Positions 27,828-46,275 of a stretch of 64,000 nt of DNA are shown here, one piece after another. Below the pieces are notes generated by a model. The model was not told the DNA's origin and did not search any database. It worked only from the letters and a program-made list of their open reading frames with translations. A program made the position numbers and the translations under genes. Origin of the DNA: Candidatus Woesearchaeota archaeon (GTDB lineage: Archaea > Nanobdellota > Nanobdellia > Pacearchaeales > GW2011-AR1); assembly GCA_964447315.1 (NCBI GenBank), contig CAYURQ010000001.1, positions 27,351-91,350 on the forward strand, read 5' to 3'. Every line of letters starts with the position of its first letter. Within the stretch, counting starts at the first letter, position 1.

Positions 27828-27910
27828 ATAAAGAAAAGTTTATATAATATTAGAACATTAAAATATAGAGGTGATGGAACCTCAAGATTCCCAATTCTTG
27901 AAAAAATACT

Positions 27911-29068
27911 ATGGCGCAAGTTAAAATGCAAGCACCATTATTAGAAAATATTTTAGATGTTTCTAACTCATTTTACTTAGATACTTTAGGATATAAACCT
28001 GAGAGAACTTCTTTGCAAGAACTTCCTAAAGAAAGTTGGAGTAATCTTGCTAATGAAAGAGGTCTAAACACAAATTCATCTGGAGTATATTTTCCAAGAA
28101 ACCAATTAGCAGTAATAAAACAAGAGAATCCCTTGAGTTTATTTCATGAGTATTTTGGACATGGATTATATTGCGAACAAAGCTTAGATGGAAGAAAATT
28201 AGTTGAATTAGAAAAAAAGCTTTTAGAAAAAGAAAAAAACAGATTTAATGGATATGAATTTACTTTAAAGGAATTGCAGGAGTTTAGGATAGAAAATCCT
28301 ACATTTCAAGAATTAAATAGATTTAAAGAAGAAAACTTAGGAAAATATGAATTATTTGCCTTATGGACAGAATATTTATTGTCAAAAGAGAATAATATGC
28401 TTGGAGATTTTGAAAGAAGATATGATAATTTTTCAAGGAAAGATAAAGAAGTTATTGATTCTACAATAAACTTTTCAGAAAGTTATGGTAATTTAGCTGC
28501 TTTTTATGCTCAAGGAATGAGCAAAATAATGACCAAAGATAGAGTGACAAAATTAATCAAAGATATTTATAAAAAAGATTTAGATAAGATAAAATTTGCA
28601 TTAGTTTATGGTTCTAAAAAACCTTTTAGTGATATTGATGTATTTATGGTTGGCAAGGGAGCTCCTATTGAATCTCATACAGATTGGTTAGATGCAAAAT
28701 ACAAGAATACTGTAGAATTTCAAAATGGATTAAGAAATTTTGATGTAAGAATAAGTGTTCCTTTAATGAATGGGGAATTTTTATTTGGAGATGAAGAATA
28801 TTTCGAAAAATCAAAACAAAAAATACTCTCTCAACCTATTACTGAAAAATCGATAAAATACAATCTGAGATGGTCTTCTAGAATGCAAAGATTGAAAGAA
28901 GAAAATCAAGAAAATGAATTTTTAAGAAAAAAATTTAAAGGATACAGTCTTACTTATATTAATAATGCATTGGCTTTAAGAAAAGGAAAAAGAATCTTTA
29001 CTAAAGAAGGTTTGCTTTCATATTCGCCTAGCGAAAGTAACACAGAATTAAAAGGAGGAAAAGCATAA
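27911..29068 (+). CDS. multi-domain protein: N-terminal region with 'HEYFGH' motif plus a possible minimal nucleotidyltransferase segment
   Basis: 'KFALVYGSKKPFSDIDVFMVG' resembles the Pol-beta NTase GS...DxD strand, but the spacer is shorter than canonical. 'HEYFGH' is HExxxH, not HExxH. The alternative start ATG 27926 cannot be excluded. Confidence 0.45.
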   Translation: MAQVKMQAPLLENILDVSNSFYLDTLGYKPERTSLQELPKESWSNLANERGLNTNSSGVYFPRNQLAVIKQENPLSLFHEYFGHGLYCEQSLDGRKLVELEKKLLEKEKNRFNGYEFTLKELQEFRIENPTFQELNRFKEENLGKYELFALWTEYLLSKENNMLGDFERRYDNFSRKDKEVIDSTINFSESYGNLAAFYAQGMSKIMTKDRVTKLIKDIYKKDLDKIKFALVYGSKKPFSDIDVFMVGKGAPIESHTDWLDAKYKNTVEFQNGLRNFDVRISVPLMNGEFLFGDEEYFEKSKQKILSQPITEKSIKYNLRWSSRMQRLKEENQENEFLRKKFKGYSLTYINNALALRKGKRIFTKEGLLSYSPSESNTELKGGKA

Positions 29069-29368
29069 ATGAAACTTGAACAAATGACTGGAGAAATTTC
29101 ACAAGCATCTCAAGGAAGGAGCAAATACTTCGTGGTTGGAGATTTAAGTTACTTGTCTGGATCTCATTTATATATGGCTGATGAACTATATATAAAGAAT
29201 TTTAGAGATGGAAGTATACTCCACATTCATGAAGTAGATGGTAGAATCACTGGTGCTAATATTAGGGGCACTAATGATTTAAGAGGGACTCCAATTAGCA
29301 ACTATCAAGCAACAATGTTAGATGTCTTGCCTGGAAGCTCTAGAACAATCATAAAAAACGGATCATAA
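29069..29368 (+). CDS. hypothetical protein (99 aa), translationally coupled
   Basis: The ATG directly abuts the upstream stop. No motif. Confidence 0.45.
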   Translation: MKLEQMTGEISQASQGRSKYFVVGDLSYLSGSHLYMADELYIKNFRDGSILHIHEVDGRITGANIRGTNDLRGTPISNYQATMLDVLPGSSRTIIKNGS

Positions 29369-29369
29369 A

Positions 29370-29612
29370 ATGGTTTCAGAAAAGCAGATTAAGCACGAGC
29401 TTATAGCCATATATTCTAATTATCTTTCCAGTAAAGAGGATAAAAAGAATAGAGAAAAAGGGTATAAGCTTTATACAAAGTATTTCAATGGTGCAGAAAC
29501 TCTTTTTAGAGAAAATGTGAGTACTGCAATTTGGCAAGCCTTTAATCTGTACGAAGGCAAACTAAAAGAATCCAATGCAAAAAAGATTCTTGAAGATCTT
29601 CGCAAGACTTAA
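29370..29612 (+). CDS. hypothetical protein (80 aa), translationally coupled
   Basis: ATG 1 nt after the upstream stop. No motif. Confidence 0.45.
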   Translation: MVSEKQIKHELIAIYSNYLSSKEDKKNREKGYKLYTKYFNGAETLFRENVSTAIWQAFNLYEGKLKESNAKKILEDLRKT

Positions 29613-29661
29613 TTTTTATTTTATTTTTTATTTTTAGATAATAAAATTCATATTTAGAAAA

Positions 29662-30147
29662 ATGAAAAAACAAGAAATACTAGAAGAACTTAAAAAACAA
29701 TTTGAATTAACAAAGAAAAAACTTAATTTCAAAGCTAGTTATGATGAAATAAATAACATGTCCTATATTGAGGATATGGCTTTAAGCCAGGGTTTTGTTA
29801 GTAACCAATTCCCAAGGCAGATGATTAACAGAATTGTTGAAACCTTTTATGGATGGGTTGGAGAGATTTATTCCTGGATTTATACCCCGCAAATGGACCT
29901 TATTCATGGGCATGAGGGAAAAAGACTTTCTGAACAAGAAAAAAAAGAATTACTTAATATGATTGATAGAATTATGTATTTAGTTAGAAAAAATAAAAGA
30001 ATTGCTTTTCAAGGTTTAATTGAAAAACAAGAAGGAGAATTTGTTGATGAATTAGTTGAATTTGATAAAAAATACTTTAATCCTTTTATGTTAAAATATC
30101 ATAAAAAATTTGAGAATATCTGGAAACAAGAAATAGATAAAAATTAA
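29662..30147 (+). CDS. hypothetical protein (161 aa)
   Basis: Intact ORF after a T-rich 49-nt gap. No motif. Confidence 0.4.
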   Translation: MKKQEILEELKKQFELTKKKLNFKASYDEINNMSYIEDMALSQGFVSNQFPRQMINRIVETFYGWVGEIYSWIYTPQMDLIHGHEGKRLSEQEKKELLNMIDRIMYLVRKNKRIAFQGLIEKQEGEFVDELVEFDKKYFNPFMLKYHKKFENIWKQEIDKN

Positions 30148-30158
30148 ATATTTTTCAA

Positions 30159-30467
30159 TTAATAAGGTATCTTTTCACCTTCCCTAGAGCAATGCGTGCA
30201 ATTGCCTTCAAGACCACATTCTCCTCCAGAAAGCCTTAATCCTTGTCCAGGAGCATTATAATTTCCTTGATAATATCTACATCTTGGTTCAATAAGAAAT
30301 TCTTGCCATCCTCCTGAAGATCCAAGAGTGCTACGTCTAGATACTTTCATTCCCCCTCGAACTTCAACATCTTTTTCTTTAGAAGTGCAAGTGAATGGAT
30401 GATCATACTTTTCTCTTAAATTTTCCATTACTTCTTTAAGAACTGAATTTGAATATTCATAACTCAT
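30159..30467 (-). CDS. Cys-rich small protein, paralogue B (102 aa; start moved to 'MSYEYS')
   Basis: It shares 'KYDHPF.C', 'VRG.M.V', 'F.IEP.C.YY.G.Y' and a terminal 'C....C..C' with the upstream gene. Trimming removes the overlap with 30475..30783. Confidence 0.55.
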   Translation of the reverse strand: MSYEYSNSVLKEVMENLREKYDHPFTCTSKEKDVEVRGGMKVSRRSTLGSSGGWQEFLIEPRCRYYQGNYNAPGQGLRLSGGECGLEGNCTHCSREGEKIPY

Positions 30468-30474
30468 TTTTAAA

Positions 30475-30783
30475 TTATACATTTCCTCCATCTGTTTCAC
30501 AGGCTCTGCAAACACTTTTTCCTGGTTTTCCACAAATTCCAGTGTCTCCTCCTGTATATCCTCCCCTATAATAACTACATTTTGGTTCAATAAAGAATTT
30601 TTGATATCCGCTATTACTAGGAGCTGATCCAGGATACCACCTAACAGTCATCCCTCTAACCCGCACCCCTATCTCCTGCGCTTTTTTACTCCCTCCCTTT
30701 GCAAGAATATTTAGATACCCACAAATAAACGGATGATCATATTTTTTTTCCAGATCCTTTTTTATTTCATTAACATCTGACAT
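30475..30783 (-). CDS. Cys-rich small protein, paralogue A (102 aa)
   Basis: Same conserved blocks as paralogue B. Visibly higher G+C than the surroundings. Confidence 0.55.
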   Translation of the reverse strand: MSDVNEIKKDLEKKYDHPFICGYLNILAKGGSKKAQEIGVRVRGMTVRWYPGSAPSNSGYQKFFIEPKCSYYRGGYTGGDTGICGKPGKSVCRACETDGGNV

Positions 30784-30901
30784 TAAAAAATAATGCTCTT
30801 AATATTTAAATAAATTATTGTACTGAAAAATACTCTTCCTCTAAAACAGTAAACTAAGTAAAACAGATAATACTTCTGTAAAAGACGAAAGATTTAAATA
30901 G

Positions 30902-30919
30902 TAATATCAATTGATATTA
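30902..30919. promoter_or_regulatory. perfect 18-bp palindrome 'taatatcaattgatatta' between TATA box and start of 30940
   Basis: It lies between the TATA-like 'gaaagatttaaatag' (30889-30903) and 'aggag'/ATG 30940. The core 'atcaattgat' recurs at 59555-59566 in front of the paralogous gene. Confidence 0.55.
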
Positions 30920-30939
30920 TCATAAAAATAGGAGTTAAA

Positions 30940-31218
30940 ATGCCATTATTACAAAAAAGAAATCCAAATGCAAGGTCACCAACATTACAAACAGTATTGA
31001 TGGTTGAAAAATTCATTGAAGAAAATAGTGGAGAGTATAAAAAAACAGAATTGTTCAAAAAACTTCCTAGAAAAGTAATGTGGCAAACATTTCAAATAAT
31101 AGTGCAATATCTTGAAGAAAATTATAAAATAATTATTGGAAAGGATGGAATAGTAACCTACATATGGAATCCAAATTTCTATGAAAAAATTAAAGATAGG
31201 CCAGAGATAAAAATATGA
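30940..31218 (+). CDS. small winged-helix-like DNA-binding protein, putative antitoxin
   Basis: 92 aa, paralogous to 59574..59861 ('SPTL.TV.MVE..I.ENSGE.KKT......LP.K.MW.T......YL.E.....I..DG...YIWNP'). It overlaps the downstream toxin-like gene by 4 nt. Confidence 0.45.
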   Translation: MPLLQKRNPNARSPTLQTVLMVEKFIEENSGEYKKTELFKKLPRKVMWQTFQIIVQYLEENYKIIIGKDGIVTYIWNPNFYEKIKDRPEIKI

Positions 31219-31535
31219 AATCAAAGGTTGTTTTTGTTGATAATAGCCTAGAAAAAGCGTTTAATTCTCTTGATGAATCAGACCCTATTAAAAAAGCATT
31301 AATTAGGGCAATAAAAAATATTCAACAAGATCCAAAAGCTGGAAGGAGTGTTATAAAAAGAATGATTCCAGAGAGACTAATTAAGAAATATGGGATAAAT
31401 AACTTGATGATTTACAATTTGCCAAATGCATGGAGAATGTTATATTCAGTAACTACTTCTGGAGATATAGAATTGGTGGCTGTAATACTTGATTGGATGA
31501 ATCACAAGGACTATGAGAGATTATTCAAGTTTTAA
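31215..31535 (+). CDS. RelE/ParE-superfamily toxin-like protein
   Basis: '...NLPNAWRMLYSV....IELVAVILDWMNHKDYERLF' fits the RelE/ParE C-terminal pattern. ATGA overlap with the upstream small gene. Confidence 0.5.
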   Translation: MKSKVVFVDNSLEKAFNSLDESDPIKKALIRAIKNIQQDPKAGRSVIKRMIPERLIKKYGINNLMIYNLPNAWRMLYSVTTSGDIELVAVILDWMNHKDYERLFKF

Positions 31536-31832
31536 TTATTCTTCATCTTCCTCAAGAACTAGTAAACTAAGTAAAACAATTAATACTCCTGCTATTATAG
31601 AAATTACCCAGCTTAGCCAACCTAACTCTAGAGTCTTAAACTTAATTATTAAAAAACCTGCAATACCAAGCAATCCTATGAATATATAATCTTTTCGTAT
31701 TTTTTCTTTGATAATTGGGGCGTGTTCTGAAAATACATCAAGAATTCCAGTAACAATTACAACAACCAATAATATATTTAAGTTAAGATAAGTGCTAACA
31801 AGTCCTGCCCATATTTGTTCAATCAATAACAA
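31536..31832 (-). CDS. small membrane protein, 'LGW' family copy 1 (98 aa; TTG start as tracked)
   Basis: Three hydrophobic segments and an acidic tail. Paralogues at 33542, 36225, 38237 and the C-terminal half of 44150..44632. Confidence 0.55.
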   Translation of the reverse strand: MLLIEQIWAGLVSTYLNLNILLVVVIVTGILDVFSEHAPIIKEKIRKDYIFIGLLGIAGFLIIKFKTLELGWLSWVISIIAGVLIVLLSLLVLEEDEE

Positions 31833-31903
31833 TATTAGATAAGTTACTAAGACTGTTTGAAAGATGTGATTTACTAGGGATGCGTTGTGTCTGTGGAAAA
31901 GGG

Positions 31904-31917
31904 AAAAGTTTATAGAA
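31904..31917 (+). promoter_or_regulatory. BRE/TATA-like promoter of 31938 (leaderless geometry)
   Basis: 'aaaagtttatagaa' centred 26 nt before ATG 31938. Duplicate at 36599-36612. Confidence 0.5.
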
Positions 31918-31937
31918 TTTTAAATTATTATTAAAAC

Positions 31938-32324
31938 ATGGAAGAAAGAGATGTAATAATTAAGATTTATGATAAAAAAGAAGAAATTAATAAAATAATT
32001 AAAGAATTAAAAAAATATTCATTTGAAGATTACATTAAAACTGGCCATTATGAAATTTCTTTATTAACTAAAGGAACAGATGAAGATAAATTGAGAGAGA
32101 TTTATCCTAAATTTGATATTATAGAATTAATAGCATTGAGGAGGCATAAAAATGGTTATGAGAATTATGATGTTTATTATGAACTTGAAAAAGGAAATTA
32201 TGCTTTGTTTGCCATAAATCTAGAAGGTAAAAAACCTAAAATAGATAATGCATTTATAGCTAATAGAATATTCAAAAATTTCTTAAAATCTATGGTAAAA
32301 AGATATGGTAATAAAATGGTTTAA
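31938..32324 (+). CDS. hypothetical protein (128 aa), possibly toxin-like
   Basis: No firm motif, only a loose resemblance to small RNase-fold toxins. Convergent with the DUF2283-like gene, overlapping it by 4 nt. Confidence 0.4.
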   Translation: MEERDVIIKIYDKKEEINKIIKELKKYSFEDYIKTGHYEISLLTKGTDEDKLREIYPKFDIIELIALRRHKNGYENYDVYYELEKGNYALFAINLEGKKPKIDNAFIANRIFKNFLKSMVKRYGNKMV

Positions 32325-32656
32325 TTAGTCATGCATTGCATAGGTATATTTGCTATAGGAATTTGTTTTATTCCTGCTTTTTCATCTTCTAATCCCACCC
32401 CAATAAATAATTGATCTCTGCTTGGTTTTACAATAAGATTTAATTTTTCAAAGTCTTTTATTTGTTGTATATTAAACCCTATTGCCTCAAGAAAATTAGA
32501 AAACTCTCTTACTTCTAAACTAACTACTTTTCCGTTTCCAGTAGTGCTAATAATAAAATCTCCAAAGCTAAAATTCTTCTTAACTTTCTCATTATCTTGA
32601 ATAGAAGCCACAATTAAGCTGTCTGTATTCTCATCATATTTAGAGACTTTTATCAT
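32321..32656 (-). CDS. DUF2283-like small protein
   Basis: N-terminal 'MIKVSKYDENTDSLIVAS' fits the DUF2283 'YD.e.D.lyi' pattern. Confidence 0.45.
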   Translation of the reverse strand: MIKVSKYDENTDSLIVASIQDNEKVKKNFSFGDFIISTTGNGKVVSLEVREFSNFLEAIGFNIQQIKDFEKLNLIVKPSRDQLFIGVGLEDEKAGIKQIPIANIPMQCMTN

Positions 32657-32756
32657 ATTTTATAATAATATTTTGTTTATTTATACCTTTCTATTCATCT
32701 TCTAGAGGCAAGTAAAACATATAAATCTTAATAAATAATTAAAACTCCTTTTCTTA

Positions 32757-33545
32757 ATGGGAATTGATTCATCTGAAGCAAATCAAATAATAAACGCTAT
32801 TGATTTTGTAAATCATCATTATGGAGGTTCTGCAAAAGTTACTGGAGAATTCTTTTGTAAAGACTGTAATGAGAAATTTCCTTCTGGAGAATTTCGTTAT
32901 GATAAAGGAGGGTATATTCCAGGGCCAGGTTTAATTAATTTGTCTTCTGAAAGGGCTGCATTTCCCCTTCATGAGTTTCATACTGTTCTTGCTTTAAAAG
33001 ATTCTGATGAGATCTATGAAAAAAGAGTGATTTTAGACTTATTTAATAAATCAAGAAACTGGAATTTTTATGATGTTCCAGAAAGATGCTTTGAGGATTA
33101 TATGAAAATAATGAAAACAAGCTCACTAATTTCTATTGCTAGTCTAGAAGCTAATCATTGGTGTTATTCACTTCATTCAACACCAGATTTTACAGAAGAA
33201 GAAATGCTGGAGGATCCTATTAAAAGGGATATTCTAGAAATGGATAGGAAGATTAATCTTAGGCCAAATAAATTAGAAAATGAGGTTAAACCAGAAATAA
33301 ATCGGGTTTTCAAAGACATAATTGGTAATAGAGAAATTCCAATAATTTATATTATTCCAGAAGAATTTAGAGGAGATTTTGGAGAGGAATATTATAAAAG
33401 GGATTTTATTGAAGCAACATACAATACTTTTAAAGCAAAGAACATACTTTTTCCAGATGAAAAAAGAAATTCTGTTATTAAAATAATTGATTCTTACTTT
33501 AAAGAAGCAGAATTAAAGCATGAAAGACACCCTTCTCCTTTTTAG
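32757..33545 (+). CDS. hypothetical protein (262 aa)
   Basis: Intact ORF with a single 'CKDC' pair and no recognisable domain. Confidence 0.45.
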   Translation: MGIDSSEANQIINAIDFVNHHYGGSAKVTGEFFCKDCNEKFPSGEFRYDKGGYIPGPGLINLSSERAAFPLHEFHTVLALKDSDEIYEKRVILDLFNKSRNWNFYDVPERCFEDYMKIMKTSSLISIASLEANHWCYSLHSTPDFTEEEMLEDPIKRDILEMDRKINLRPNKLENEVKPEINRVFKDIIGNREIPIIYIIPEEFRGDFGEEYYKRDFIEATYNTFKAKNILFPDEKRNSVIKIIDSYFKEAELKHERHPSPF

Positions 33546-33844
33546 GATTCTTCATCCTCTTCTAAAACAAGTAAACTAAGTAAAACAATTAATACTCCTG
33601 CAACAAGAGATATTACCCATGACAACCATCCTAATTCTAGTGTTTTAAACTTGATTATCAGGAAACCTGCAATACCAAGCAATCCTATAAATATGTAATC
33701 TTTAGGTTTTATTTTTTCTTTAATAATTGGAGCGTGTTCTGAAAATACATCAAGAATTCCAGTAACAATTACAACAACTAATAAGATATTTAAGTTAAGA
33801 TAAGTGCTAACAAGTCCTGCCCATATTTGCTCAATTAATAACAA
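33542..33844 (-). CDS. small membrane protein, 'LGW' family copy 2 (100 aa)
   Basis: About 90% identical by eye to 31536..31832. Confidence 0.55.
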   Translation of the reverse strand: MLLIEQIWAGLVSTYLNLNILLVVVIVTGILDVFSEHAPIIKEKIKPKDYIFIGLLGIAGFLIIKFKTLELGWLSWVISLVAGVLIVLLSLLVLEEDEES

Positions 33845-33913
33845 TATTAGATAAGTTACTAAGACTGTTTGAAAGGTGTGATTTACTAGGGATGTGTTGT
33901 GTCCACGGAATAG

Positions 33914-33952
33914 GAGGTGTTGGAGTGAGGGTTTGGGAATGTTGATAGGATT
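33914..33952 (+). repeat. G-rich element, subfamily 2
   Basis: 'gaggtgttggagtgagggtttgggaatgttgataggatt' aligns with 58345-58389 and 59480-59524. Confidence 0.5.
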
Positions 33953-33960
33953 ATTTTAAT

Positions 33961-34602
33961 TTATATAGAAGAATTAATATCTCCATGCACTACTAATGAT
34001 TGATAATTTTCAAATAAGAAAGGGGCATAAAATTGGGCTTCTGGAAAATCTTTAGTTGTACTTAGATACCAAATATTCTCTTCCATTTTATCTTTAGCTC
34101 TTTCAACTGACTTTTCTATAGTAGAACCTTCTATTAATGCTTTAACAAGGATATTTGAGGGTTCTAAAAATAATTTTGCTATTTTATCTCTTCTTGGAGA
34201 TGCCTCCTGATTAGGATCTTTCCCAAGATTAAAATCTCTCTCATATCCAATAAAACAAATGGCTCCTTTAGTAACTATTATCTTCCCTAGTTTTTGTCCT
34301 GATGAACAAGTTAGGGAATAAACAACCATGCCTGAAAGAACTTTTGCATTTTCTTTAGAGATTATTATCTCATTTTTATGCCCAGCAATCAAATCAGGAT
34401 TACCATGCCCATTAAACATAATAAAATCTGGTTTTTGCTTTTTTATAATTTTTAAGATTTCTTTTTTATTTGCTTTTTCTCTTTCCCTATTTATTGTTTT
34501 GTTTCCTCTTTCTTTCGAATATTTAACTAATTCTTTACTATAATAATATAAATAAGAGAGGGTCCCATCATGCTCGGGTCTGGAAAAAATAATATTACTC
34601 AT
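33961..34602 (-). CDS. minimal CHAT/caspase-like (clan CD) cysteine peptidase candidate (213 aa)
   Basis: Strand+His-Gly 'DFIMFNGHG' (His66) and strand+Cys 'VVYSLTCSSG' (Cys99), followed by 'KGAICFIGY', in the order and spacing typical of caspase-fold enzymes. Confidence 0.4.
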   Translation of the reverse strand: MSNIIFSRPEHDGTLSYLYYYSKELVKYSKERGNKTINREREKANKKEILKIIKKQKPDFIMFNGHGNPDLIAGHKNEIIISKENAKVLSGMVVYSLTCSSGQKLGKIIVTKGAICFIGYERDFNLGKDPNQEASPRRDKIAKLFLEPSNILVKALIEGSTIEKSVERAKDKMEENIWYLSTTKDFPEAQFYAPFLFENYQSLVVHGDINSSI

Positions 34603-34604
34603 AA

Positions 34605-34841
34605 TTATTGTTTTACTAAAAAACCTCTTTTGAAAGCTTTAAGATAGTTTAATTGGATTTCAACTATTCTATTTCCAATATCTGTATTATCTTCTATGTT
34701 TTTTATCAACTCATCTCTTTTCATAAATTTTCCATCAGACATTCCAAATGAAACACTTACATTTGGGGAAGCCTGCCTAATTCTTTCTATGACTATTTCT
34801 TTCTTTAACTGATCTATATTCTCTTGTTTATTTTCTTTCAT
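34605..34841 (-). CDS. hypothetical protein (78 aa), middle gene of the operon
   Basis: 2-nt gap to the downstream gene and a 4-nt overlap with the upstream gene. Confidence 0.45.
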   Translation of the reverse strand: MKENKQENIDQLKKEIVIERIRQASPNVSVSFGMSDGKFMKRDELIKNIEDNTDIGNRIVEIQLNYLKAFKRGFLVKQ

Positions 34842-35020
34842 ATTATTTCTAACTCTTTTAGTATTTTTAATATTTTCTCTCCATTTTCTGTCTTATTCTT
34901 TATTTCTTGGTAAGCAAGATTCCAACTTATTGGATTTTTATCTATAATTACTATTGTATTGTTTCTTTCTTTTATAGGCACTCCAGAATAAACTTTAAAG
35001 AAATCTTCTTCATTTACCAT
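34838..35020 (-). CDS. hypothetical protein (60 aa), first gene of the operon
   Basis: Intact ORF coupled to the next gene. Confidence 0.4.
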   Translation of the reverse strand: MVNEEDFFKVYSGVPIKERNNTIVIIDKNPISWNLAYQEIKNKTENGEKILKILKELEII

Positions 35021-35054
35021 TATTAAATTAGTAAATTAATCTTTTTAATTTTTG

Positions 35055-35165
35055 TCATTTCTTTTTCCTCGGCTTATTCCAATAAGGACTTTGGGGTTTC
35101 ATGAAACACTGAAGAGAAAAGGATATTTAAATGCTGTTTTTTGGAGTGTGGGTAAAACAATTCAT
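35055..35165 (-). pseudogene. decayed copy of the small zinc-ribbon gene (compare 46276..46413)
   Basis: It reads 'MNCFTHTPKNSI*ISFSLQCFMKPQSPYWNKPRKKK*'. The tail matches '...CPKCKSPYWNKPKKK' of the intact gene. It has an in-frame TAA and has lost Cys ligands. Confidence 0.55.
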
Positions 35166-35203
35166 CTTAATCTATATATTTTTTAATTAATGATTCTATA
35201 ATT

Positions 35204-35464
35204 TTAATTATACACTTTATCTCTTTTATCAATTTTTACTATCAAAATTATTTTCTGAGCTTCTTTAATTTTATATAATGCTCTAAAGTACCCAATTCTA
35301 TACCTAAAAACCATCTCATTATTATCTCTCCCAATAAACTTTGAATCACTTGGTACAGGAGTATTTTCAAGGTTTTTTAATCTCTTTTCAATCCTTTCTC
35401 TTTCTTTGGTATCTAATTTGTTTAAAAAATCCTGGGCTTTAACAGACAGCTCTACAGAATACAT
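35204..35464 (-). CDS. relE: RelE-family toxin (archaeal type)
   Basis: '...FRYRIGYFRALYKI.....I.IVKI.KRDKVY' is the archaeal RelE pattern. Confidence 0.7.
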   Translation of the reverse strand: MYSVELSVKAQDFLNKLDTKERERIEKRLKNLENTPVPSDSKFIGRDNNEMVFRYRIGYFRALYKIKEAQKIILIVKIDKRDKVYN

Positions 35465-35465
35465 T

Positions 35466-35627
35466 TTACAGTCTCTTTGTTCTGCCTTCTTTTAAATCTT
35501 CTTCAGCTTGATTTAAAGAGTTTATGTCGTCTTGGGTTAGAGTTACATCTATTATGTGCTCCTTTAAAGAATCCATATCTTTTTTTAAATTGTCTAGTTT
35601 ACTTATGATTAATTCTTCGTTTTCCAT
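35466..35627 (-). CDS. relB: RelB-like antitoxin (53 aa, absent from the ORF track)
   Basis: My translation is 'MENEELIISKLDNLKKDMDSLKEHIIDVTLTQDDINSLNQAEEDLKEGRTKRL'. Its stop is 1 nt before the relE ATG. Confidence 0.6.
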   Translation of the reverse strand: MENEELIISKLDNLKKDMDSLKEHIIDVTLTQDDINSLNQAEEDLKEGRTKRL

Positions 35628-35665
35628 ATCTTCCAATATAAAAATAACTATATAATCTTTTCGTA

Positions 35666-35715
35666 TTTTTTATTTTTCATAAGGGGTGTTGGTTGGAGCA
35701 TTTTAGGGAGTATTG
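35666..35715 (+). repeat. G-rich element, subfamily 1 (3'-end remnant of a paralogue of gene 46504)
   Basis: In frame it reads '...FVFFIFHKGCWLEHFREYCKLKKKK*', versus '...FFIFHRGCWLEHFREYYQLNKKK*' in the intact gene. There is no start codon upstream. Confidence 0.6.
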
Positions 35716-35781
35716 TAAATTAAAAAAAAAGAAATAATTAGCAGAACAATCAAAAAAAATTAGAAAAGATATGGAAAGAAT

Positions 35782-36189
35782 CTACAAAATTTCTTTTAAA
35801 TAATTAGATAAATTTAAATCCCTAATTTCTTGTTTTCTTAACCATTTATAATCTTCATGTTCTTTACTTAACTTAACATTCTCTGGTTTTTCATGAGTTT
35901 TTAATATATATATTATTCTTAAAAGATGAACTTTTTTCCCTTGTTTCTCATATTCTTTACTTAATATTCTATAGATTGAAACTATTTCTGTATCGAGACT
36001 TGTTTCTTCCTTAACTTCTCTAAGTACAGCTTCAGAAGGATCTTCTCCAAATTCAACTCTTCCTCCAGGAATTTCCCATTCTCGAGAACCATCTACTTCT
36101 TTTGAATTTCTTTTAAGAAAAAGAAACTTATCTTGTATCTGAATCAATCCATTTGCTAAAATATTTGTTTTTTTCTTAATTTCTGACAT
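35782..36189 (-). CDS. Nudix hydrolase
   Basis: Nudix box 'GGRVEFGEDPSEAVLREVKEETSL'. It lies in the 543-bp unique spacer between the two 4.15-kb repeat copies. Confidence 0.85.
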   Translation of the reverse strand: MSEIKKKTNILANGLIQIQDKFLFLKRNSKEVDGSREWEIPGGRVEFGEDPSEAVLREVKEETSLDTEIVSIYRILSKEYEKQGKKVHLLRIIYILKTHEKPENVKLSKEHEDYKWLRKQEIRDLNLSNYLKEIL

Positions 36190-36224
36190 GTTTTAATAAA
36201 AGAATACATTTTATTTAAGGTTTT

Positions 36225-36527
36225 CTAATCTTGTTGTTCACCTTCTTCTAAAACAAGCAAACTAAGTAAAACAATTAATACTCCTGCTATTATAGAAATT
36301 ACCCAGCTTAGCCAACCTAACTCTAGAGTCTTAAACTTAATTATTAAAAAACCTGCAATACCAAGCAATCCTATGAATATATAATCTTTTCGTATTTTTT
36401 CTTTGATAATTGGGGCGTGTTCTGAAAATACATCAAGAATTCCAGTAACAATTACAACAACCAATAATATATTTAAGTTAAGATAAGTGCTAACAAGTCC
36501 TGCCCATATTTGTTCAATCAATAACAA
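36225..36527 (-). CDS. small membrane protein, 'LGW' family copy 3 (100 aa)
   Basis: Same as 31536..31832 except for the C-terminal tail ('LEEGEQQD' versus 'LEEDEE'). The repeat boundary falls in its 3' end. Confidence 0.55.
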   Translation of the reverse strand: MLLIEQIWAGLVSTYLNLNILLVVVIVTGILDVFSEHAPIIKEKIRKDYIFIGLLGIAGFLIIKFKTLELGWLSWVISIIAGVLIVLLSLLVLEEGEQQD

Positions 36528-36632
36528 TATTAGATAAGTTACTAAGACTGTTTGAAAGATGTGATTTACTAGGGATGCGTTGTGTCTGTGGAAAAGGGAA
36601 AAGTTTATAGAATTTTAAATTATTATTAAAAC

Positions 36633-37019
36633 ATGGAAGAAAGAGATGTAATAATTAAGATTTATGATAAAAAAGAAGAAATTAATAAAATAATTAAAGA
36701 ATTAAAAAAATATTCATTTGAAGATTACATTAAAACTGGCCATTATGAAATTTCTTTATTAACTAAAGGAACAGATGAAGATAAATTGAGAGAGATTTAT
36801 CCTAAATTTGATATTATAGAATTAATAGCATTGAGGAGGCATAAAAATGGTTATGAGAATTATGATGTTTATTATGAACTTGAAAAAGGAAATTATGCTT
36901 TGTTTGCCATAAATCTAGAAGGTAAAAAACCTAAAATAGATAATGCATTTATAGCTAATAGAATATTCAAAAATTTCTTAAAATCTATGGTAAAAAGATA
37001 TGGTAATAAAATGGTTTAA
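36633..37019 (+). CDS. hypothetical protein (128 aa), duplicate of 31938..32324
   Basis: Identical translation. Confidence 0.4.
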   Translation: MEERDVIIKIYDKKEEINKIIKELKKYSFEDYIKTGHYEISLLTKGTDEDKLREIYPKFDIIELIALRRHKNGYENYDVYYELEKGNYALFAINLEGKKPKIDNAFIANRIFKNFLKSMVKRYGNKMV

Positions 37020-37351
37020 TTAGTCATGCATTGCATAGGTATATTTGCTATAGGAATTTGTTTTATTCCTGCTTTTTCATCTTCTAATCCCACCCCAATA
37101 AATAATTGATCTCTGCTTGGTTTTACAATAAGATTTAATTTTTCAAAGTCTTTTATTTGTTGTATATTAAACCCTATTGCCTCAAGAAAATTAGAAAACT
37201 CTCTTACTTCTAAACTAACTACTTTTCCGTTTCCAGTAGTGCTAATAATAAAATCTCCAAAGCTAAAATTCTTCTTAACTTTCTCATTATCTTGAATAGA
37301 AGCCACAATTAAGCTGTCTGTATTCTCATCATATTTAGAGACTTTTATCAT
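37016..37351 (-). CDS. DUF2283-like small protein, duplicate of 32321..32656
   Basis: Identical translation. Confidence 0.45.
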   Translation of the reverse strand: MIKVSKYDENTDSLIVASIQDNEKVKKNFSFGDFIISTTGNGKVVSLEVREFSNFLEAIGFNIQQIKDFEKLNLIVKPSRDQLFIGVGLEDEKAGIKQIPIANIPMQCMTN

Positions 37352-37451
37352 ATTTTATAATAATATTTTGTTTATTTATACCTTTCTATTCATCTTCTAG
37401 AGGCAAGTAAAACATATAAATCTTAATAAATAATTAAAACTCCTTTTCTTA

Positions 37452-38240
37452 ATGGGAATTGATTCATCTGAAGCAAATCAAATAATAAACGCTATTGATT
37501 TTGTAAATCATCATTATGGAGGTTCTGCAAAAGTTACTGGAGAATTCTTTTGTAAAGACTGTAATGAGAAATTTCCTTCTGGAGAATTTCGTTATGATAA
37601 AGGAGGGTATATTCCAGGGCCAGGTTTAATTAATTTGTCTTCTGAAAGGGCTGCATTTCCCCTTCATGAGTTTCATACTGTTCTTGCTTTAAAAGATTCT
37701 GATGAGATCTATGAAAAAAGAGTGATTTTAGACTTATTTAATAAATCAAGAAACTGGAATTTTTATGATGTTCCAGAAAGATGCTTTGAGGATTATATGA
37801 AAATAATGAAAACAAGCTCACTAATTTCTATTGCTAGTCTAGAAGCTAATCATTGGTGTTATTCACTTCATTCAACACCAGATTTTACAGAAGAAGAAAT
37901 GCTGGAGGATCCTATTAAAAGGGATATTCTAGAAATGGATAGGAAGATTAATCTTAGGCCAAATAAATTAGAAAATGAGGTTAAACCAGAAATAAATCGG
38001 GTTTTCAAAGACATAATTGGTAATAGAGAAATTCCAATAATTTATATTATTCCAGAAGAATTTAGAGGAGATTTTGGAGAGGAATATTATAAAAGGGATT
38101 TTATTGAAGCAACATACAATACTTTTAAAGCAAAGAACATACTTTTTCCAGATGAAAAAAGAAATTCTGTTATTAAAATAATTGATTCTTACTTTAAAGA
38201 AGCAGAATTAAAGCATGAAAGACACCCTTCTCCTTTTTAG
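37452..38240 (+). CDS. hypothetical protein (262 aa), duplicate of 32757..33545
   Basis: Identical translation. Confidence 0.45.
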   Translation: MGIDSSEANQIINAIDFVNHHYGGSAKVTGEFFCKDCNEKFPSGEFRYDKGGYIPGPGLINLSSERAAFPLHEFHTVLALKDSDEIYEKRVILDLFNKSRNWNFYDVPERCFEDYMKIMKTSSLISIASLEANHWCYSLHSTPDFTEEEMLEDPIKRDILEMDRKINLRPNKLENEVKPEINRVFKDIIGNREIPIIYIIPEEFRGDFGEEYYKRDFIEATYNTFKAKNILFPDEKRNSVIKIIDSYFKEAELKHERHPSPF

Positions 38241-38539
38241 GATTCTTCATCCTCTTCTAAAACAAGTAAACTAAGTAAAACAATTAATACTCCTGCAACA
38301 AGAGATATTACCCATGACAACCATCCTAATTCTAGTGTTTTAAACTTGATTATCAGGAAACCTGCAATACCAAGCAATCCTATAAATATGTAATCTTTAG
38401 GTTTTATTTTTTCTTTAATAATTGGAGCGTGTTCTGAAAATACATCAAGAATTCCAGTAACAATTACAACAACTAATAAGATATTTAAGTTAAGATAAGT
38501 GCTAACAAGTCCTGCCCATATTTGCTCAATTAATAACAA
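38237..38539 (-). CDS. small membrane protein, 'LGW' family copy 4
   Basis: Translation identical to 33542..33844. Confidence 0.55.
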   Translation of the reverse strand: MLLIEQIWAGLVSTYLNLNILLVVVIVTGILDVFSEHAPIIKEKIKPKDYIFIGLLGIAGFLIIKFKTLELGWLSWVISLVAGVLIVLLSLLVLEEDEES

Positions 38540-38608
38540 TATTAGATAAGTTACTAAGACTGTTTGAAAGGTGTGATTTACTAGGGATGTGTTGTGTCCA
38601 CGGAATAG

Positions 38609-38647
38609 GAGGTGTTGGAGTGAGGGTTTGGGAATGTTGATAGGATT
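38609..38647 (+). repeat. G-rich element, subfamily 2 (duplicate of 33914..33952)
   Basis: Lies within repeat copy 2. Confidence 0.5.
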
Positions 38648-38655
38648 ATTTTAAT

Positions 38656-39297
38656 TTATATAGAAGAATTAATATCTCCATGCACTACTAATGATTGATA
38701 ATTTTCAAATAAGAAAGGGGCATAAAATTGGGCTTCTGGAAAATCTTTAGTTGTACTTAGATACCAAATATTCTCTTCCATTTTATCTTTAGCTCTTTCA
38801 ACTGACTTTTCTATAGTAGAACCTTCTATTAATGCTTTAACAAGGATATTTGAGGGTTCTAAAAATAATTTTGCTATTTTATCTCTTCTTGGAGATGCCT
38901 CCTGATTAGGATCTTTCCCAAGATTAAAATCTCTCTCATATCCAATAAAACAAATGGCTCCTTTAGTAACTATTATCTTCCCTAGTTTTTGTCCTGATGA
39001 ACAAGTTAGGGAATAAACAACCATGCCTGAAAGAACTTTTGCATTTTCTTTAGAGATTATTATCTCATTTTTATGCCCAGCAATCAAATCAGGATTACCA
39101 TGCCCATTAAACATAATAAAATCTGGTTTTTGCTTTTTTATAATTTTTAAGATTTCTTTTTTATTTGCTTTTTCTCTTTCCCTATTTATTGTTTTGTTTC
39201 CTCTTTCTTTCGAATATTTAACTAATTCTTTACTATAATAATATAAATAAGAGAGGGTCCCATCATGCTCGGGTCTGGAAAAAATAATATTACTCAT
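38656..39297 (-). CDS. minimal CHAT/caspase-like peptidase candidate, duplicate of 33961..34602
   Basis: Identical translation. Confidence 0.4.
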   Translation of the reverse strand: MSNIIFSRPEHDGTLSYLYYYSKELVKYSKERGNKTINREREKANKKEILKIIKKQKPDFIMFNGHGNPDLIAGHKNEIIISKENAKVLSGMVVYSLTCSSGQKLGKIIVTKGAICFIGYERDFNLGKDPNQEASPRRDKIAKLFLEPSNILVKALIEGSTIEKSVERAKDKMEENIWYLSTTKDFPEAQFYAPFLFENYQSLVVHGDINSSI

Positions 39298-39299
39298 AA

Positions 39300-39536
39300 T
39301 TATTGTTTTACTAAAAAACCTCTTTTGAAAGCTTTAAGATAGTTTAATTGGATTTCAACTATTCTATTTCCAATATCTGTATTATCTTCTATGTTTTTTA
39401 TCAACTCATCTCTTTTCATAAATTTTCCATCAGACATTCCAAATGAAACACTTACATTTGGGGAAGCCTGCCTAATTCTTTCTATGACTATTTCTTTCTT
39501 TAACTGATCTATATTCTCTTGTTTATTTTCTTTCAT
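39300..39536 (-). CDS. hypothetical protein (78 aa), duplicate of 34605..34841
   Basis: Identical translation. Confidence 0.45.
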   Translation of the reverse strand: MKENKQENIDQLKKEIVIERIRQASPNVSVSFGMSDGKFMKRDELIKNIEDNTDIGNRIVEIQLNYLKAFKRGFLVKQ

Positions 39537-39715
39537 ATTATTTCTAACTCTTTTAGTATTTTTAATATTTTCTCTCCATTTTCTGTCTTATTCTTTATTT
39601 CTTGGTAAGCAAGATTCCAACTTATTGGATTTTTATCTATAATTACTATTGTATTGTTTCTTTCTTTTATAGGCACTCCAGAATAAACTTTAAAGAAATC
39701 TTCTTCATTTACCAT
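39533..39715 (-). CDS. hypothetical protein (60 aa), duplicate of 34838..35020
   Basis: Identical translation. Confidence 0.4.
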   Translation of the reverse strand: MVNEEDFFKVYSGVPIKERNNTIVIIDKNPISWNLAYQEIKNKTENGEKILKILKELEII

Positions 39716-39749
39716 TATTAAATTAGTAAATTAATCTTTTTAATTTTTG

Positions 39750-39860
39750 TCATTTCTTTTTCCTCGGCTTATTCCAATAAGGACTTTGGGGTTTCATGAA
39801 ACACTGAAGAGAAAAGGATATTTAAATGCTGTTTTTTGGAGTGTGGGTAAAACAATTCAT
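39750..39860 (-). pseudogene. decayed zinc-ribbon gene copy (duplicate of 35055..35165)
   Basis: Lies within repeat copy 2. Confidence 0.55.
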
Positions 39861-39898
39861 CTTAATCTATATATTTTTTAATTAATGATTCTATAATT

Positions 39899-40159
39899 TT
39901 AATTATACACTTTATCTCTTTTATCAATTTTTACTATCAAAATTATTTTCTGAGCTTCTTTAATTTTATATAATGCTCTAAAGTACCCAATTCTATACCT
40001 AAAAACCATCTCATTATTATCTCTCCCAATAAACTTTGAATCACTTGGTACAGGAGTATTTTCAAGGTTTTTTAATCTCTTTTCAATCCTTTCTCTTTCT
40101 TTGGTATCTAATTTGTTTAAAAAATCCTGGGCTTTAACAGACAGCTCTACAGAATACAT
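39899..40159 (-). CDS. relE: RelE-family toxin, duplicate of 35204..35464
   Basis: Identical translation. Confidence 0.7.
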   Translation of the reverse strand: MYSVELSVKAQDFLNKLDTKERERIEKRLKNLENTPVPSDSKFIGRDNNEMVFRYRIGYFRALYKIKEAQKIILIVKIDKRDKVYN

Positions 40160-40160
40160 T

Positions 40161-40322
40161 TTACAGTCTCTTTGTTCTGCCTTCTTTTAAATCTTCTTCA
40201 GCTTGATTTAAAGAGTTTATGTCGTCTTGGGTTAGAGTTACATCTATTATGTGCTCCTTTAAAGAATCCATATCTTTTTTTAAATTGTCTAGTTTACTTA
40301 TGATTAATTCTTCGTTTTCCAT
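40161..40322 (-). CDS. relB: RelB-like antitoxin, duplicate of 35466..35627
   Basis: Offset 4,695 bp within repeat copy 2. Confidence 0.6.
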   Translation of the reverse strand: MENEELIISKLDNLKKDMDSLKEHIIDVTLTQDDINSLNQAEEDLKEGRTKRL

Positions 40323-40360
40323 ATCTTCCAATATAAAAATAACTATATAATCTTTTCGTA

Positions 40361-40410
40361 TTTTTTATTTTTCATAAGGGGTGTTGGTTGGAGCATTTTA
40401 GGGAGTATTG
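40361..40410 (+). repeat. G-rich element, subfamily 1 (duplicate of 35666..35715; the downstream tail differs)
   Basis: After 40410 it continues 'ggggaggaagggaaaagtagataaatatt', which is homologous to the tail of the 41.5-kb copy rather than the 35.7-kb copy. Confidence 0.6.
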
Positions 40411-40591
40411 GGGGAGGAAGGGAAAAGTAGATAAATATTCATTAAACAATAATATCACAATGAGAAAAAGTTTATATATCCCGCATTGTTTGATAAATTA
40501 TGAGAGTAAAATGGGGGGTGAATGTATTTTCTGAAAGATAGTTTTATAAATATAATTAAATCTCTCTTTTATAAAGATTTTAAGTAAAAAA

Positions 40592-40846
40592 ATGGAACAG
40601 CAATTTATGACAAATAATTCAGATAATTTGCAAGAACTCTTTGATTCTAAAAAAAATGAAGTTGTTTCTCTTTGTAAGGAAGTTGCTGAAAATGAATTTG
40701 ACTTATTTGAATTTAATCTTTTCTTAGCTTCTATGGGGAAGAAAAAATTAGATGAATCTACTAAGAAAGTAAGAGAACTTAGAAAGAAAGTAGATAAAGG
40801 AAAGATTGATTTAACAAAAGACGAAGATATGTTGGATGATTATTAA
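40592..40846 (+). CDS. hypothetical acidic protein (84 aa)
   Basis: Intact ORF, convergent with 40843..41427 (4-nt overlap). Confidence 0.35.
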   Translation: MEQQFMTNNSDNLQELFDSKKNEVVSLCKEVAENEFDLFEFNLFLASMGKKKLDESTKKVRELRKKVDKGKIDLTKDEDMLDDY

Positions 40847-41427
40847 TGCCTTTTCTTTTTATTAGAATGTTTATTTTTTGAAAAATTTCTTAACATCTTA
40901 TTTACCTCTTGTTCTGATCCAGGTTCTATAATTGTTGGTACATCCAAATCAATATTTAAATAATTACAAGGATCTTGAAAATCTCTTCTATTATTTGTTG
41001 AGATGCAATTTATTCCAGCAATACAATATACAGATATTATTCTTAAATCATTATCCCCTGCCTTCCAATTATTGTCTTTTCTTTCTGTTTTTAGTTTGTC
41101 AAAAAGTGCATTTACCTTGGCTTGATTTACATCTTTCTTTTTTATGGGTTTTATCCTATTTCTTCTTAAAAAATTAAAGATTTCTCTTTTATTTAATTCT
41201 TTATCTGGATTCTTTTTAGATAACAGATTTAATAATTCACTAAAAACAATATAATTTGTATGAAGAAAATTGCCTCTTTTTGCAATTCTAGGCCTATATC
41301 CCCAAGTTCCTTTTTCATTTTCCATCCAAGAAAAAGAGTTATCTGTATCTAAACCAATTTTTCTTAAAATTTTATTTCTTGCTACAACTCTTTCCATATG
41401 AATAACCTTCTTTTTCTTATTATCCAT
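40843..41427 (-). CDS. hypothetical protein with possible PIN-like C-terminal motif (194 aa; trimmed to 'MDNKKKK')
   Basis: 'DNDLRIISVYCIAGINCISTNNRRDF' resembles the PIN 'D..I.A.A...G..L.T.D.DF' end. The tracked N-terminal 61 aa merely reads through the G-rich element. Confidence 0.3.
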   Translation of the reverse strand: MDNKKKKVIHMERVVARNKILRKIGLDTDNSFSWMENEKGTWGYRPRIAKRGNFLHTNYIVFSELLNLLSKKNPDKELNKREIFNFLRRNRIKPIKKKDVNQAKVNALFDKLKTERKDNNWKAGDNDLRIISVYCIAGINCISTNNRRDFQDPCNYLNIDLDVPTIIEPGSEQEVNKMLRNFSKNKHSNKKKRH

Positions 41428-41467
41428 TATTTGTTTAATCAAACTAAATTTAAAAATATATAGCAAG

Positions 41468-41514: not shown

Positions 41515-41575
41515 GGGGGAGTGTTTGGAGGGAGAGAGGGAAAAGTAGATAAATGTTAAAACAATCTCTTTTTTT

Positions 41576-46274: not shown

Positions 46275-46275
46275 T

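What the first reader, a model, noticed from the sequence alone, without database searches (positions are those of the whole stretch)
33961..35020. Three-gene operon ending in a minimal (213 aa) CHAT/caspase-like protease candidate, present in two exact copies
The 213-aa product carries the two hallmark elements of caspase-fold (clan CD) peptidases in the right order. These are a hydrophobic strand ending in His-Gly ('DFIMFNGHG', His66) and, 33 residues later, a hydrophobic strand ending in Cys ('VVYSLTCSSG', Cys99). They are followed by 'KGAICFIGYERDF', which resembles the post-catalytic G-A strand of CHAT domains.

The protein has no fused sensor, repeat or effector domain, and it is much shorter than the CHAT/caspase-like proteins I know from defence systems. 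It is translationally coupled to two tiny motif-less ORFs (60 aa and 78 aa; 4-nt overlap and 2-nt gap). Upstream lie a decayed zinc-ribbon gene and a RelBE pair, and downstream a small 'LGW' membrane protein. The whole set is duplicated exactly at 38656-39715.

This is my best candidate for an undescribed compact protease-based toxin/defence module. The function is pure inference.
Basis: partly seen in the sequence, partly recalled or inferred. Interest (0 to 1): 0.68.

Follow-up and report, generated by a model that had tools for sequence, protein, structure and literature searches.

The report
Minimal caspase-fold protease three-gene cassette
A tiny archaeon carries, in two exact copies, an unannotated three-gene cassette that recurs across DPANN archaea: two small conserved proteins followed by a 213-residue enzyme with the fold and catalytic His/Cys pair of caspase/gingipain-type proteases, most likely a self-contained protease switch of the toxin/defence kind.

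Summary
Three tightly coupled minus-strand ORFs of 60, 78 and 213 aa lie at 33961-35020 and recur exactly at 38656-39715, inside a 4152-nt exact duplication.

It reaches no Pfam, NCBIfam, PADLOC or PHROG threshold. It is therefore a new sequence family in a known clan, slightly closer to gingipain (C25) than to CHAT.

The 60/78/213 order is conserved in 32 of 33 distinct loci where it could be judged, from Woese-, Pace-, Nano-, Micr- and Iainarchaeota; the exception is a decayed copy. Flanking genes are never conserved. They include MNT/HEPN pairs, an integrase fragment and a transposase, but also housekeeping genes.

The small proteins match no known family or fold.

My best reading is an autonomous protease module of the tripartite toxin-antitoxin or abortive-infection type. 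The fold and dyad are computationally supported. The conflict role is inferred.

The parts
34838..35020 (-). Gene A, copy 1: 60-aa conserved small protein, first gene of the cassette
   Evidence: ORF. It has 261 stand-alone homologues of 59-100 aa. It lies directly upstream of B in 29+ loci. F7, R19 and W33 are invariant. No Pfam, NCBIfam, PADLOC or PHROG family.
34605..34841 (-). Gene B, copy 1: 78-aa conserved small protein. It overlaps the A stop by 4 nt and ends 2 nt before C.
33961..34602 (-). Gene C, copy 1: 213-aa stand-alone clan CD (caspase-hemoglobinase fold) cysteine peptidase candidate. Dyad His66/Cys99; invariant Asp12, Asp139, Ser149 and Asn150.
39533..39715 (-). Gene A, copy 2 (identical)
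39300..39536 (-). Gene B, copy 2 (identical)
38656..39297 (-). Gene C, copy 2 (identical)
35021..35203 (-). Upstream spacer of copy 1, presumed to hold the promoter. An AT-rich box AAAATTAAAAAG lies about 20-32 nt before the A start codon.
   Evidence: Read directly from the sequence. It is inference only. No conserved operator palindrome was found.
31564..35715 (.). 4152-nt block that carries copy 1 and is repeated exactly at 36259-40410. This is context, not part of the cassette.
   Evidence: Other genes in the block are not linked to the triad in other genomes.

Best explanation
Gene C encodes an active cytoplasmic Cys-His endopeptidase of the caspase-hemoglobinase fold. It belongs to a new, minimal sequence family nearest to gingipains and CHAT proteases. 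It works with the two small proteins A and B as a self-contained, co-translated three-protein cassette.

The most likely logic is that of a tripartite toxin-antitoxin or abortive-infection module. A and/or B bind C and keep it silent, or are themselves its first substrates. When that restraint is lost, C cleaves cellular proteins and arrests the cell. Cleavage is possibly after Arg/Lys, given an invariant Asp12 at the position of the gingipain S1 aspartate.

Computationally supported: the fold, the invariant dyad, the gene order and coupling, the wide conservation in DPANN, and the autonomy from neighbouring genes.

Inferred: catalytic activity, P1 preference, physical A/B-C interaction, toxicity, and a conflict role.
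For: Fold:
- AF2 model pLDDT 96.2.
- Foldseek agrees.

Active site:
- Strand 60-64 leads to His66-Gly, and strand 93-97 leads to Cys99.
- Both residues are invariant in 32 proteins down to 26% identity, together with D12, N64, G65, G67, G119, Y120, F124, D139, S149 and N150.
- The His-to-Cys spacing of 33 equals that of RgpB H211-C244.
- A sub-threshold Pfam C25 match spans both residues.

Cassette:
- The A-B-C order is present in 32 of 33 distinct loci where it could be judged, from five DPANN lineages. These are the 31 loci analysed onward, plus L040 and L043; duplicate records of the same locus are not counted separately, and L042 was too short to judge. The exception, L037, is a decayed copy.
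- The A/B overlap is 4 nt in 23 of 29 loci. The B/C gap is between -8 and +4 nt in 24 of 29.
- All three proteins diverge at similar rates.

Accessory character:
- No flanking gene is conserved.
- MNT/HEPN pairs, SLFN_AlbA_2, an Eco57I methylase, an IS66 transposase, an integrase fragment and ParE/RelE lie nearby.
- Only 28 of 185,579 species genomes matched, although the scan used the near-invariant [LF]IMFNGHG motif.
- L037 is a frameshifted copy with His replaced by Tyr.
- The cassette here lies in a segmental duplication next to a RelE/ParE pair.

Precedent: bacterial defence caspase-like proteases (type IV Thoeris caspase, PCaspase) act as promiscuous Arg-specific executioners (10.1101/2024.10.24.620036; 10.1101/2023.06.23.546230).
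Against: - No PADLOC, PHROG or viral-contig match.
- Neighbours also include housekeeping genes: ribosomal proteins, SRP54 and GrpE.
- A, B and C are as well conserved as many housekeeping proteins, and their divergence roughly tracks taxonomy. That pattern is less typical of fast-moving defence genes.
- No DNA-binding or known antitoxin domain could be shown in A or B.
- No conserved operator was found.
- The equivalence of Asp12 to the gingipain S1 Asp163 rests on topology only. The profile-to-sequence alignment with RgpB was not significant.
Confidence: 0.45

Rival explanations
1. Housekeeping or regulatory processing protease. C is a dedicated maturation or regulatory protease of DPANN archaea. 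A and B are its specific substrates or cofactors, for example two small regulators inactivated by cleavage (as with ImmA/ImmR) or proteins that need processing (as with Prp and ribosomal protein L27). There is no toxic or defence role.
For: - All three proteins show high, similar conservation, and divergence roughly follows lineage.
- The window is chromosomal: rpoB, EF-2 and SMC.
- Some neighbours are housekeeping genes.
- No defence-database hit.
- B shows faint similarity to the OmpR-type DNA-binding helix pair.
Against: - The species distribution is sparse despite a motif-based scan.
- There is no conserved synteny.
- One copy is decayed (L037).
- The cassette here is duplicated inside a block full of TA-like genes.
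- The fold search did not confirm the wHTH idea for B.
Confidence: 0.27
2. Transpeptidase or ligase rather than hydrolase. Like the gingipain-family sortase PorU, legumain-type ligases or GPI8, C cleaves a partner (A or B) and transfers it to another protein or molecule.
For: - A has a sharply conserved C-terminal end...L-E/K-I-I-stop.
Against: - A and B show no recognisable sorting signal, Gly-Gly end or cleavable tail.
- C has no signal peptide or membrane anchor.
- Nothing in the neighbourhood suggests an acceptor pathway.
Confidence: 0.08
3. Catalytically dead caspase-fold scaffold. C only binds A and B, as with c-FLIP or Raptor-type pseudo-caspases.
Against: His66, Gly67 and Cys99 are invariant across 32 sequences at 26-80% identity, as are the flanking strand residues. 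The one copy with His replaced by Tyr is a frameshifted pseudogene.
Confidence: 0.04

Closest known systems
Gingipains R and K (MEROPS C25; RgpB 4ief/1cvr, Kgp 4rbm)
   Same: - Same His-then-Cys order and an identical 33-residue spacing.
- The only sequence signal is a sub-threshold Pfam C25 hit.
- An invariant Asp (D12) caps the helix after strand 1, as the S1 Asp163 does in RgpB. This last point is inference.
   Different: - Gingipains are secreted, roughly 50-kDa and larger, multi-domain virulence proteases. They have a prodomain, an Ig-like domain and a T9SS C-terminal domain.
- C is 213 aa, cytoplasmic and archaeal, and is paired with two small proteins.
- Its Pfam score (16.6 bits) is below the 23-bit cut-off.
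CHAT proteases of defence systems (SAVED-CHAT 8tl0; TPR-CHAT/Csx29 of type III-E Craspase; DdvA)
   Same: - Foldseek top hit, E 1e-6.
- These are proteases that act as switches on specific partner proteins in conflict systems.
   Different: - CHAT proteins carry fused sensor domains (SAVED, TPR, transmembrane) and are 480-900 aa. C has none.
- No member of the family hits Pfam CHAT at E <= 0.1.
- No CRISPR or cyclic-nucleotide genes lie nearby.
[quoted passage not shown]
   Same: These are a caspase-fold protease acting as the effector of a small operon. They are promiscuous Arg-specific cleavers that cause abortive infection (10.1101/2023.06.23.546230; 10.1101/2024.10.24.620036).
   Different: - They are activated by an upstream protease or by a TIR-made nucleotide. 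Here there is no sensor or signal-generating enzyme, only two small proteins of unknown fold.
- C has no Peptidase_C14 hit.
Tripartite toxin-antitoxin operons such as omega-epsilon-zeta
   Same: The layout is the same: two small upstream genes, then a larger enzyme gene, translationally coupled, autonomous and found in variable neighbourhoods.
   Different: - The omega-epsilon-zeta toxin is a kinase, not a protease.
- No DNA-binding fold could be shown in A or B.
- Toxicity and neutralisation are untested.
- I found no described TA toxin with a caspase fold in the searches I ran.

Membership tests
Clan CD / caspase-hemoglobinase fold peptidases | Alpha/beta/alpha sandwich with a six-stranded sheet, superimposable on known members | tested here: met
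   [not shown]
Clan CD / caspase-hemoglobinase fold peptidases | Catalytic His (His-Gly) after strand 3 and Cys after strand 4, in that order, both conserved | tested here: met
   His66-Gly67 follows strand 60-64 and Cys99 follows strand 93-97. Both are invariant in 32 sequences. The 3-D His-Cys distance could not be measured because coordinates are not exposed.
Clan CD / caspase-hemoglobinase fold peptidases | Demonstrated peptidase activity that depends on the dyad | not testable with these tools
   Needs biochemistry.
CHAT domain (Pfam PF12770) | Sequence match to the family model at its threshold | tested here: not met
   No CHAT hit at E <= 0.1 in any of 32 members or in 10 divergent representatives.
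Peptidase C25 (gingipain, Pfam PF01364) | Sequence match to the family model at its gathering score (23 bits) | tested here: not met
   The window protein scores 16.6 bits, E 0.0048. Five of 32 members hit below threshold, best E 4e-4. A profile search against PDB sequences found nothing. hhalign against RgpB was not significant.
Peptidase C25 (gingipain, Pfam PF01364) | Secretion signal, prodomain and Ig-like or C-terminal sorting domains | tested here: not met
   The 213-aa protein starts directly with strand 1 and ends with strand 6. It has no extra domains.
Peptidase C14 (caspases, metacaspases, orthocaspases) | Sequence match to Peptidase_C14 | tested here: not met
   [not shown]
Toxin-antitoxin module (tripartite type) | Small partner genes directly upstream of, and coupled to, the enzyme gene; an autonomous cassette in variable contexts | tested here: met
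Toxin-antitoxin module (tripartite type) | Antitoxin or regulator with a recognisable DNA-binding domain and an operator | tested here: inconclusive
   [not shown]
Toxin-antitoxin module (tripartite type) | Toxicity of the enzyme and neutralisation by the partner(s) | not testable with these tools
   Needs expression experiments.
Catalogued anti-phage defence systems (PADLOC-DB 2.0) | Match of any component to a defence-system model | tested here: not met
   C and A have no hit. B has only noise-level hits at E about 0.01.

The most novel reading that the evidence does not exclude
The triad is a previously undescribed kind of toxin-antitoxin or abortive-infection system, found so far only in DPANN archaea. 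Its toxin is a minimal, sensor-less caspase-fold protease. Two small, distantly paralogous proteins of a new fold hold it in check or are cleaved by it. It would be an archaeal analogue of caspase-driven cell arrest, reduced to about 350 residues in total.
Probability: 0.3. Interest if true: 0.78.

Novelty: new variant of a known kind. Interest (0 to 1): 0.6.

Why it matters
Caspase-fold proteases are emerging as executioners of prokaryotic immunity, but the known ones are bacterial, large, or wired to sensors such as CRISPR, TIR and SAVED.

This family would be the smallest stand-alone version, at about 213 aa. It is confined, as far as sampled, to genome-reduced DPANN archaea, and it always travels with two small proteins of unknown fold. 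All members seen are labelled 'hypothetical' and lie outside Pfam, NCBIfam and PADLOC.

If it is a protease-toxin module, it would add a new toxin class to archaeal TA and defence biology. It would also give a very compact system for studying how caspase-fold enzymes are restrained without a prodomain or a sensor.

If it is a housekeeping processing protease, it would mark an unknown DPANN-specific pathway.

Either way, the triad defines three new protein families with a clear, testable hypothesis.

Tried and rejected
- A or B related to DUF5678, a small protein next to an aspartic protease in L009. hhalign probability was 0.2%. Rejected.
- Natural B-C or A-X fusions as Rosetta stones.
  - The long 'C' ORF in L031 was an ORF-calling artefact; B is intact in another frame.
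  - A in L032 runs in frame with a decayed integrase.
  - The N-terminal extension of A in L043 looked AbrB-like by eye but has no Pfam hit.
- Predicting a B-linker-C construct to see docking.
- Linkage to the 'LGW' membrane gene, the 262-, 111- and 128-aa genes or RelBE. None of these accompanies the triad elsewhere, except a p128/p111-like pair in one locus.
- Viral or plasmid origin. No viral contig and no PHROG.
- RNA elements. No Rfam hit in the window.
- Operator palindromes upstream of A. Only AT-rich chance palindromes, not conserved.
- Sequence-level alignment to RgpB to place Asp12 on Asp163. Not significant, so the equivalence stays topological.
- Literature search for a description of this family. 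Nothing found.

Full report
**What is in the sequence**

Three minus-strand ORFs lie at 34838-35020 (60 aa, here called A), 34605-34841 (78 aa, B) and 33961-34602 (213 aa, C).
- The A stop overlaps the B start (ATGA).
- Two nucleotides separate the B stop from the C start.
- The same three ORFs recur at 39533-39715, 39300-39536 and 38656-39297.

The repeat is exact. Window 31564-35715 equals 36259-40410, 4152 nt, with a NUDIX gene in between. A separate Logan assembly of run SRR7048221 yields a 1867-nt contig corresponding to window 33846-35712. It stops at the repeat boundaries, as expected if the repeat is real.

The window has 27.6% G+C. It carries rpoB, EF-2 and SMC, so it is chromosomal DNA of a small archaeon.

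**The 213-aa protein has a caspase-type fold**

With a 32-sequence alignment, AlphaFold2 gives pLDDT 96.2 and pTM 0.92. Strands lie at 3-8, 35-40, 60-64, 93-97, 116-120 and 203-207.

Fold searches agree:
- Foldseek against the PDB ranks the SAVED-CHAT filament (8tl0, E 1e-6), gingipain RgpB (4ief), Craspase TPR-CHAT and caspase-11 first.

His66-Gly follows strand 3 and Cys99 follows strand 4, the canonical positions. Coordinates are not exposed by the tools, so I could not measure the His-Cys distance. The juxtaposition is inferred from the topology and the superpositions.

**Conservation of the active site**

In 32 proteins from DPANN lineages, at 26-80% identity to the window protein, the invariant residues are D12, Y17, I61, N64, G65, H66, G67, C99, G106, G119, Y120, F124, D139, S149, N150 and G207.

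The only copy with His replaced (FNGYG) is a triad in L037 in which all three genes carry frameshifts. It is a pseudogene.

I checked a remembered RgpB fragment against 4ief_B.
- H211 and C244 are 33 residues apart, exactly as His66 and Cys99 are.
- The S1 aspartate D163 sits at the N-cap of the helix after strand 1, as the invariant Asp12 does.
- That Asp12 plays the same role is my inference. The profile-to-sequence alignment with RgpB was not significant.
- If the inference is right, the enzyme would prefer Arg/Lys at P1, like gingipains and the bacterial defence caspases (10.1101/2024.10.24.620036).

**Family status**

The protein reaches no curated threshold.
- Pfam gives only Peptidase_C25 at 16.6 bits (cut-off 23) over residues 32-103, and sub-threshold C25 hits in 5 of 32 members.
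- There is no CHAT or C14 hit.
- NCBIfam gave only a far-sub-threshold hit. PADLOC, PHROGs and PDB sequence searches gave nothing meaningful.
- All named database members are 'hypothetical protein'.

A profile search of 1.84 billion cluster representatives finds 1890 proteins at E <= 1e-3, 808 at <= 1e-10 and 249 at <= 1e-30. The top 150 are stand-alone proteins, nearly all of about 205-220 aa apart from truncated fragments.

It is therefore a sizeable, undescribed sequence family within a known fold. It is marginally nearer to gingipains than to CHAT.

**The triad is the unit**

I scanned one genome per species (185,579 species) with the near-invariant motif [LF]IMFNGHG and a second motif. 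This found 28 loci. By record title they come from Woese-, Pace-, Nano-, Micr- and Iainarchaeota; three records are titled 'uncultured Methanosarcinales archaeon', which I did not check.

Together with contigs found by exact protein look-up, I judged 33 distinct loci: the 31 analysed from then on, plus L040 and L043. Duplicate records of the same locus are not counted separately, and L042 was too short to judge. A-like and B-like genes lie immediately upstream of C in 32 of them. The exception is the decayed L037.
- A and B overlap by 4 nt in 23 of 29 loci.
- The B-C distance is -8 to +4 nt in 24 of 29 loci.
- A has 261 database homologues and B has 38. All are stand-alone small proteins.
- Identities of A, B and C to the window versions fall in parallel. 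In L004 they are 77, 69 and 71%. In the Iainarchaeum locus they are about 35, 27 and 31%.

That parallel divergence fits three co-evolving partners better than an enzyme with fast-changing substrates.

**What A and B are**

Neither matches a family.
- A profile comparison of A with B gives a weak shared segment: 27 columns, E 1e-4, probability 56%. The segment has the pattern ...(S/R)xxLxxEIxNxTxxGxKI.... They may be distant paralogues.
- The B model (pLDDT 85.7) is a long N-terminal helix, a beta-hairpin at 28-40 and two helices.

Their function remains open.

**Context**

No flanking gene is conserved across 31 loci. A Pfam survey of 137 neighbours within 2 kb shows two kinds of gene.
- TA, defence or mobile types: nucleotidyltransferase (Polbeta/NTP_transf_2) proteins (6 members) and HEPN proteins (2 members), SLFN_AlbA_2, an Eco57I-type methylase, a YhcG nuclease and an IS66 transposase.
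- Housekeeping types: ribosomal proteins, SRP54, GrpE and PPDK.

One locus has a tyrosine-recombinase fragment abutting A. In the window the cassette sits next to a RelE/ParE pair inside a duplicated block. Neither that pair nor the 'LGW' membrane gene accompanies the triad elsewhere. No viral contig carries it.

**Interpretation**

The protease identity is well supported computationally. I put about 0.85 on C being an active clan CD peptidase.

For the role, several features fit a selfish or conflict module of the tripartite TA or abortive-infection type, with C as effector and A/B as restraint and/or first substrates:
- an autonomous, tightly coupled small-small-enzyme layout;
- sparse species distribution despite a sensitive motif;
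- ever-changing neighbourhoods that often hold TA or mobile genes;
- a decayed copy;
- local duplication.

Precedents are the promiscuous Arg-specific caspase-like executioners of type IV Thoeris and of the SAVED-CHAT/PCaspase cascade (10.1101/2024.10.24.620036; 10.1101/2023.06.23.546230).

Four points count against this reading:
- there is no hit in defence catalogues;
- no antitoxin-type domain is recognisable;
- conservation is rather high and tracks lineage;
- housekeeping genes are frequent neighbours.

A dedicated processing or regulatory protease is the main rival (0.27). Transpeptidase (0.08) and pseudo-protease (0.04) readings are less likely. I give the whole conflict-module statement 0.45.

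**Novelty and verdict**

The fold and chemistry are known. The sequence family, its minimal sensor-less form, its apparent restriction to DPANN, and its obligate pairing with two small proteins of unassigned fold are not described in the libraries or papers I could search. I rate it a new variant of a known kind, with interest 0.6.

Its interpretation is partly supported: the fold, dyad and triad are right. 'CHAT' is not the best label. The RelBE and LGW neighbours are incidental. The defence role is still inference.

Noticed in passing
window 31564-35715 and 36259-40410: An exact 4152-nt segmental duplication carries seven or more genes, separated by a unique NUDIX gene (35782-36189). An independent Logan contig (L039) ends at the repeat edges, which suggests the repeat is real rather than a scaffolding artefact.
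   Followed up: partly
window 31536-31832, 33542-33844, 36225-36527, 38237-38539 (all - strand): There are four copies of a roughly 100-aa hydrophobic 'LGW' protein in two variants. The variants are about 96% identical in protein and differ by a 3-nt indel. Two copies lie in each duplicated block. I found no homologue in any of the 38 loci fetched at that point.
   Followed up: partly
window 31938-32324 (+) and 32321-32656 (-); L018 1954-2412 (+) and 2415-2846 (-): A convergent, end-overlapping pair of 128-aa and 111-aa genes recurs at 27-29% identity about 0.5-1 kb downstream of the triad in a Pacearchaeota contig. It may be another small two-gene module. No Pfam family matches.
   Followed up: no
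L037 5500-6700: A complete but decayed triad. A, B and C all carry frameshifts or stops, and the catalytic His is replaced (FNGYG).
   Followed up: partly
L032 4595-5752: A Phage_integrase-family ORF (Pfam E 4.6e-9) runs in frame, without a stop, into the A gene of a Micrarchaeia triad. This suggests that a mobile-element remnant abuts the cassette.
   Followed up: partly
L043 3-482: An A homologue carries an N-terminal extension of about 65 residues (MKLQRHVSRKVKNKVYTKWALTIPNKTINKLDWKHGAKLKEEILNKKLVI...). By eye it resembles an AbrB/SpoVT swapped-hairpin, but it has no Pfam hit at E <= 0.1. The contig starts inside the ORF.
   Followed up: partly
L040 1638-1928 and L041 1296-1586: In the branch with a 246-aa C homologue, a fourth gene of 96 aa starts immediately after the stop codon of C. 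It has no family match.
   Followed up: no
window 33845-33960 and 35040-35160: The 116-nt spacer downstream of C is strikingly C-rich and G-poor on the coding strand. The spacer upstream of A has a locally G+C-richer stretch with a 13-nt inverted repeat at 35089-35114. There is no Rfam hit.
   Followed up: no
window 27900-46400: About 18 kb around the cassette is almost entirely 'dark'. ORFs of 385, 161, 143, 106, 289, 447 and 402 aa gave no Pfam hit at E <= 1e-3, in contrast to the rpoB/EF-2/SMC region upstream.
   Followed up: no
A (34838-35020) versus B (34605-34841): The two small proteins share a weak motif, ...xxLxxEIxNxTxxGxKIL... (hhalign E 1e-4, probability 56%). They may be ancient paralogues.
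   Followed up: partly
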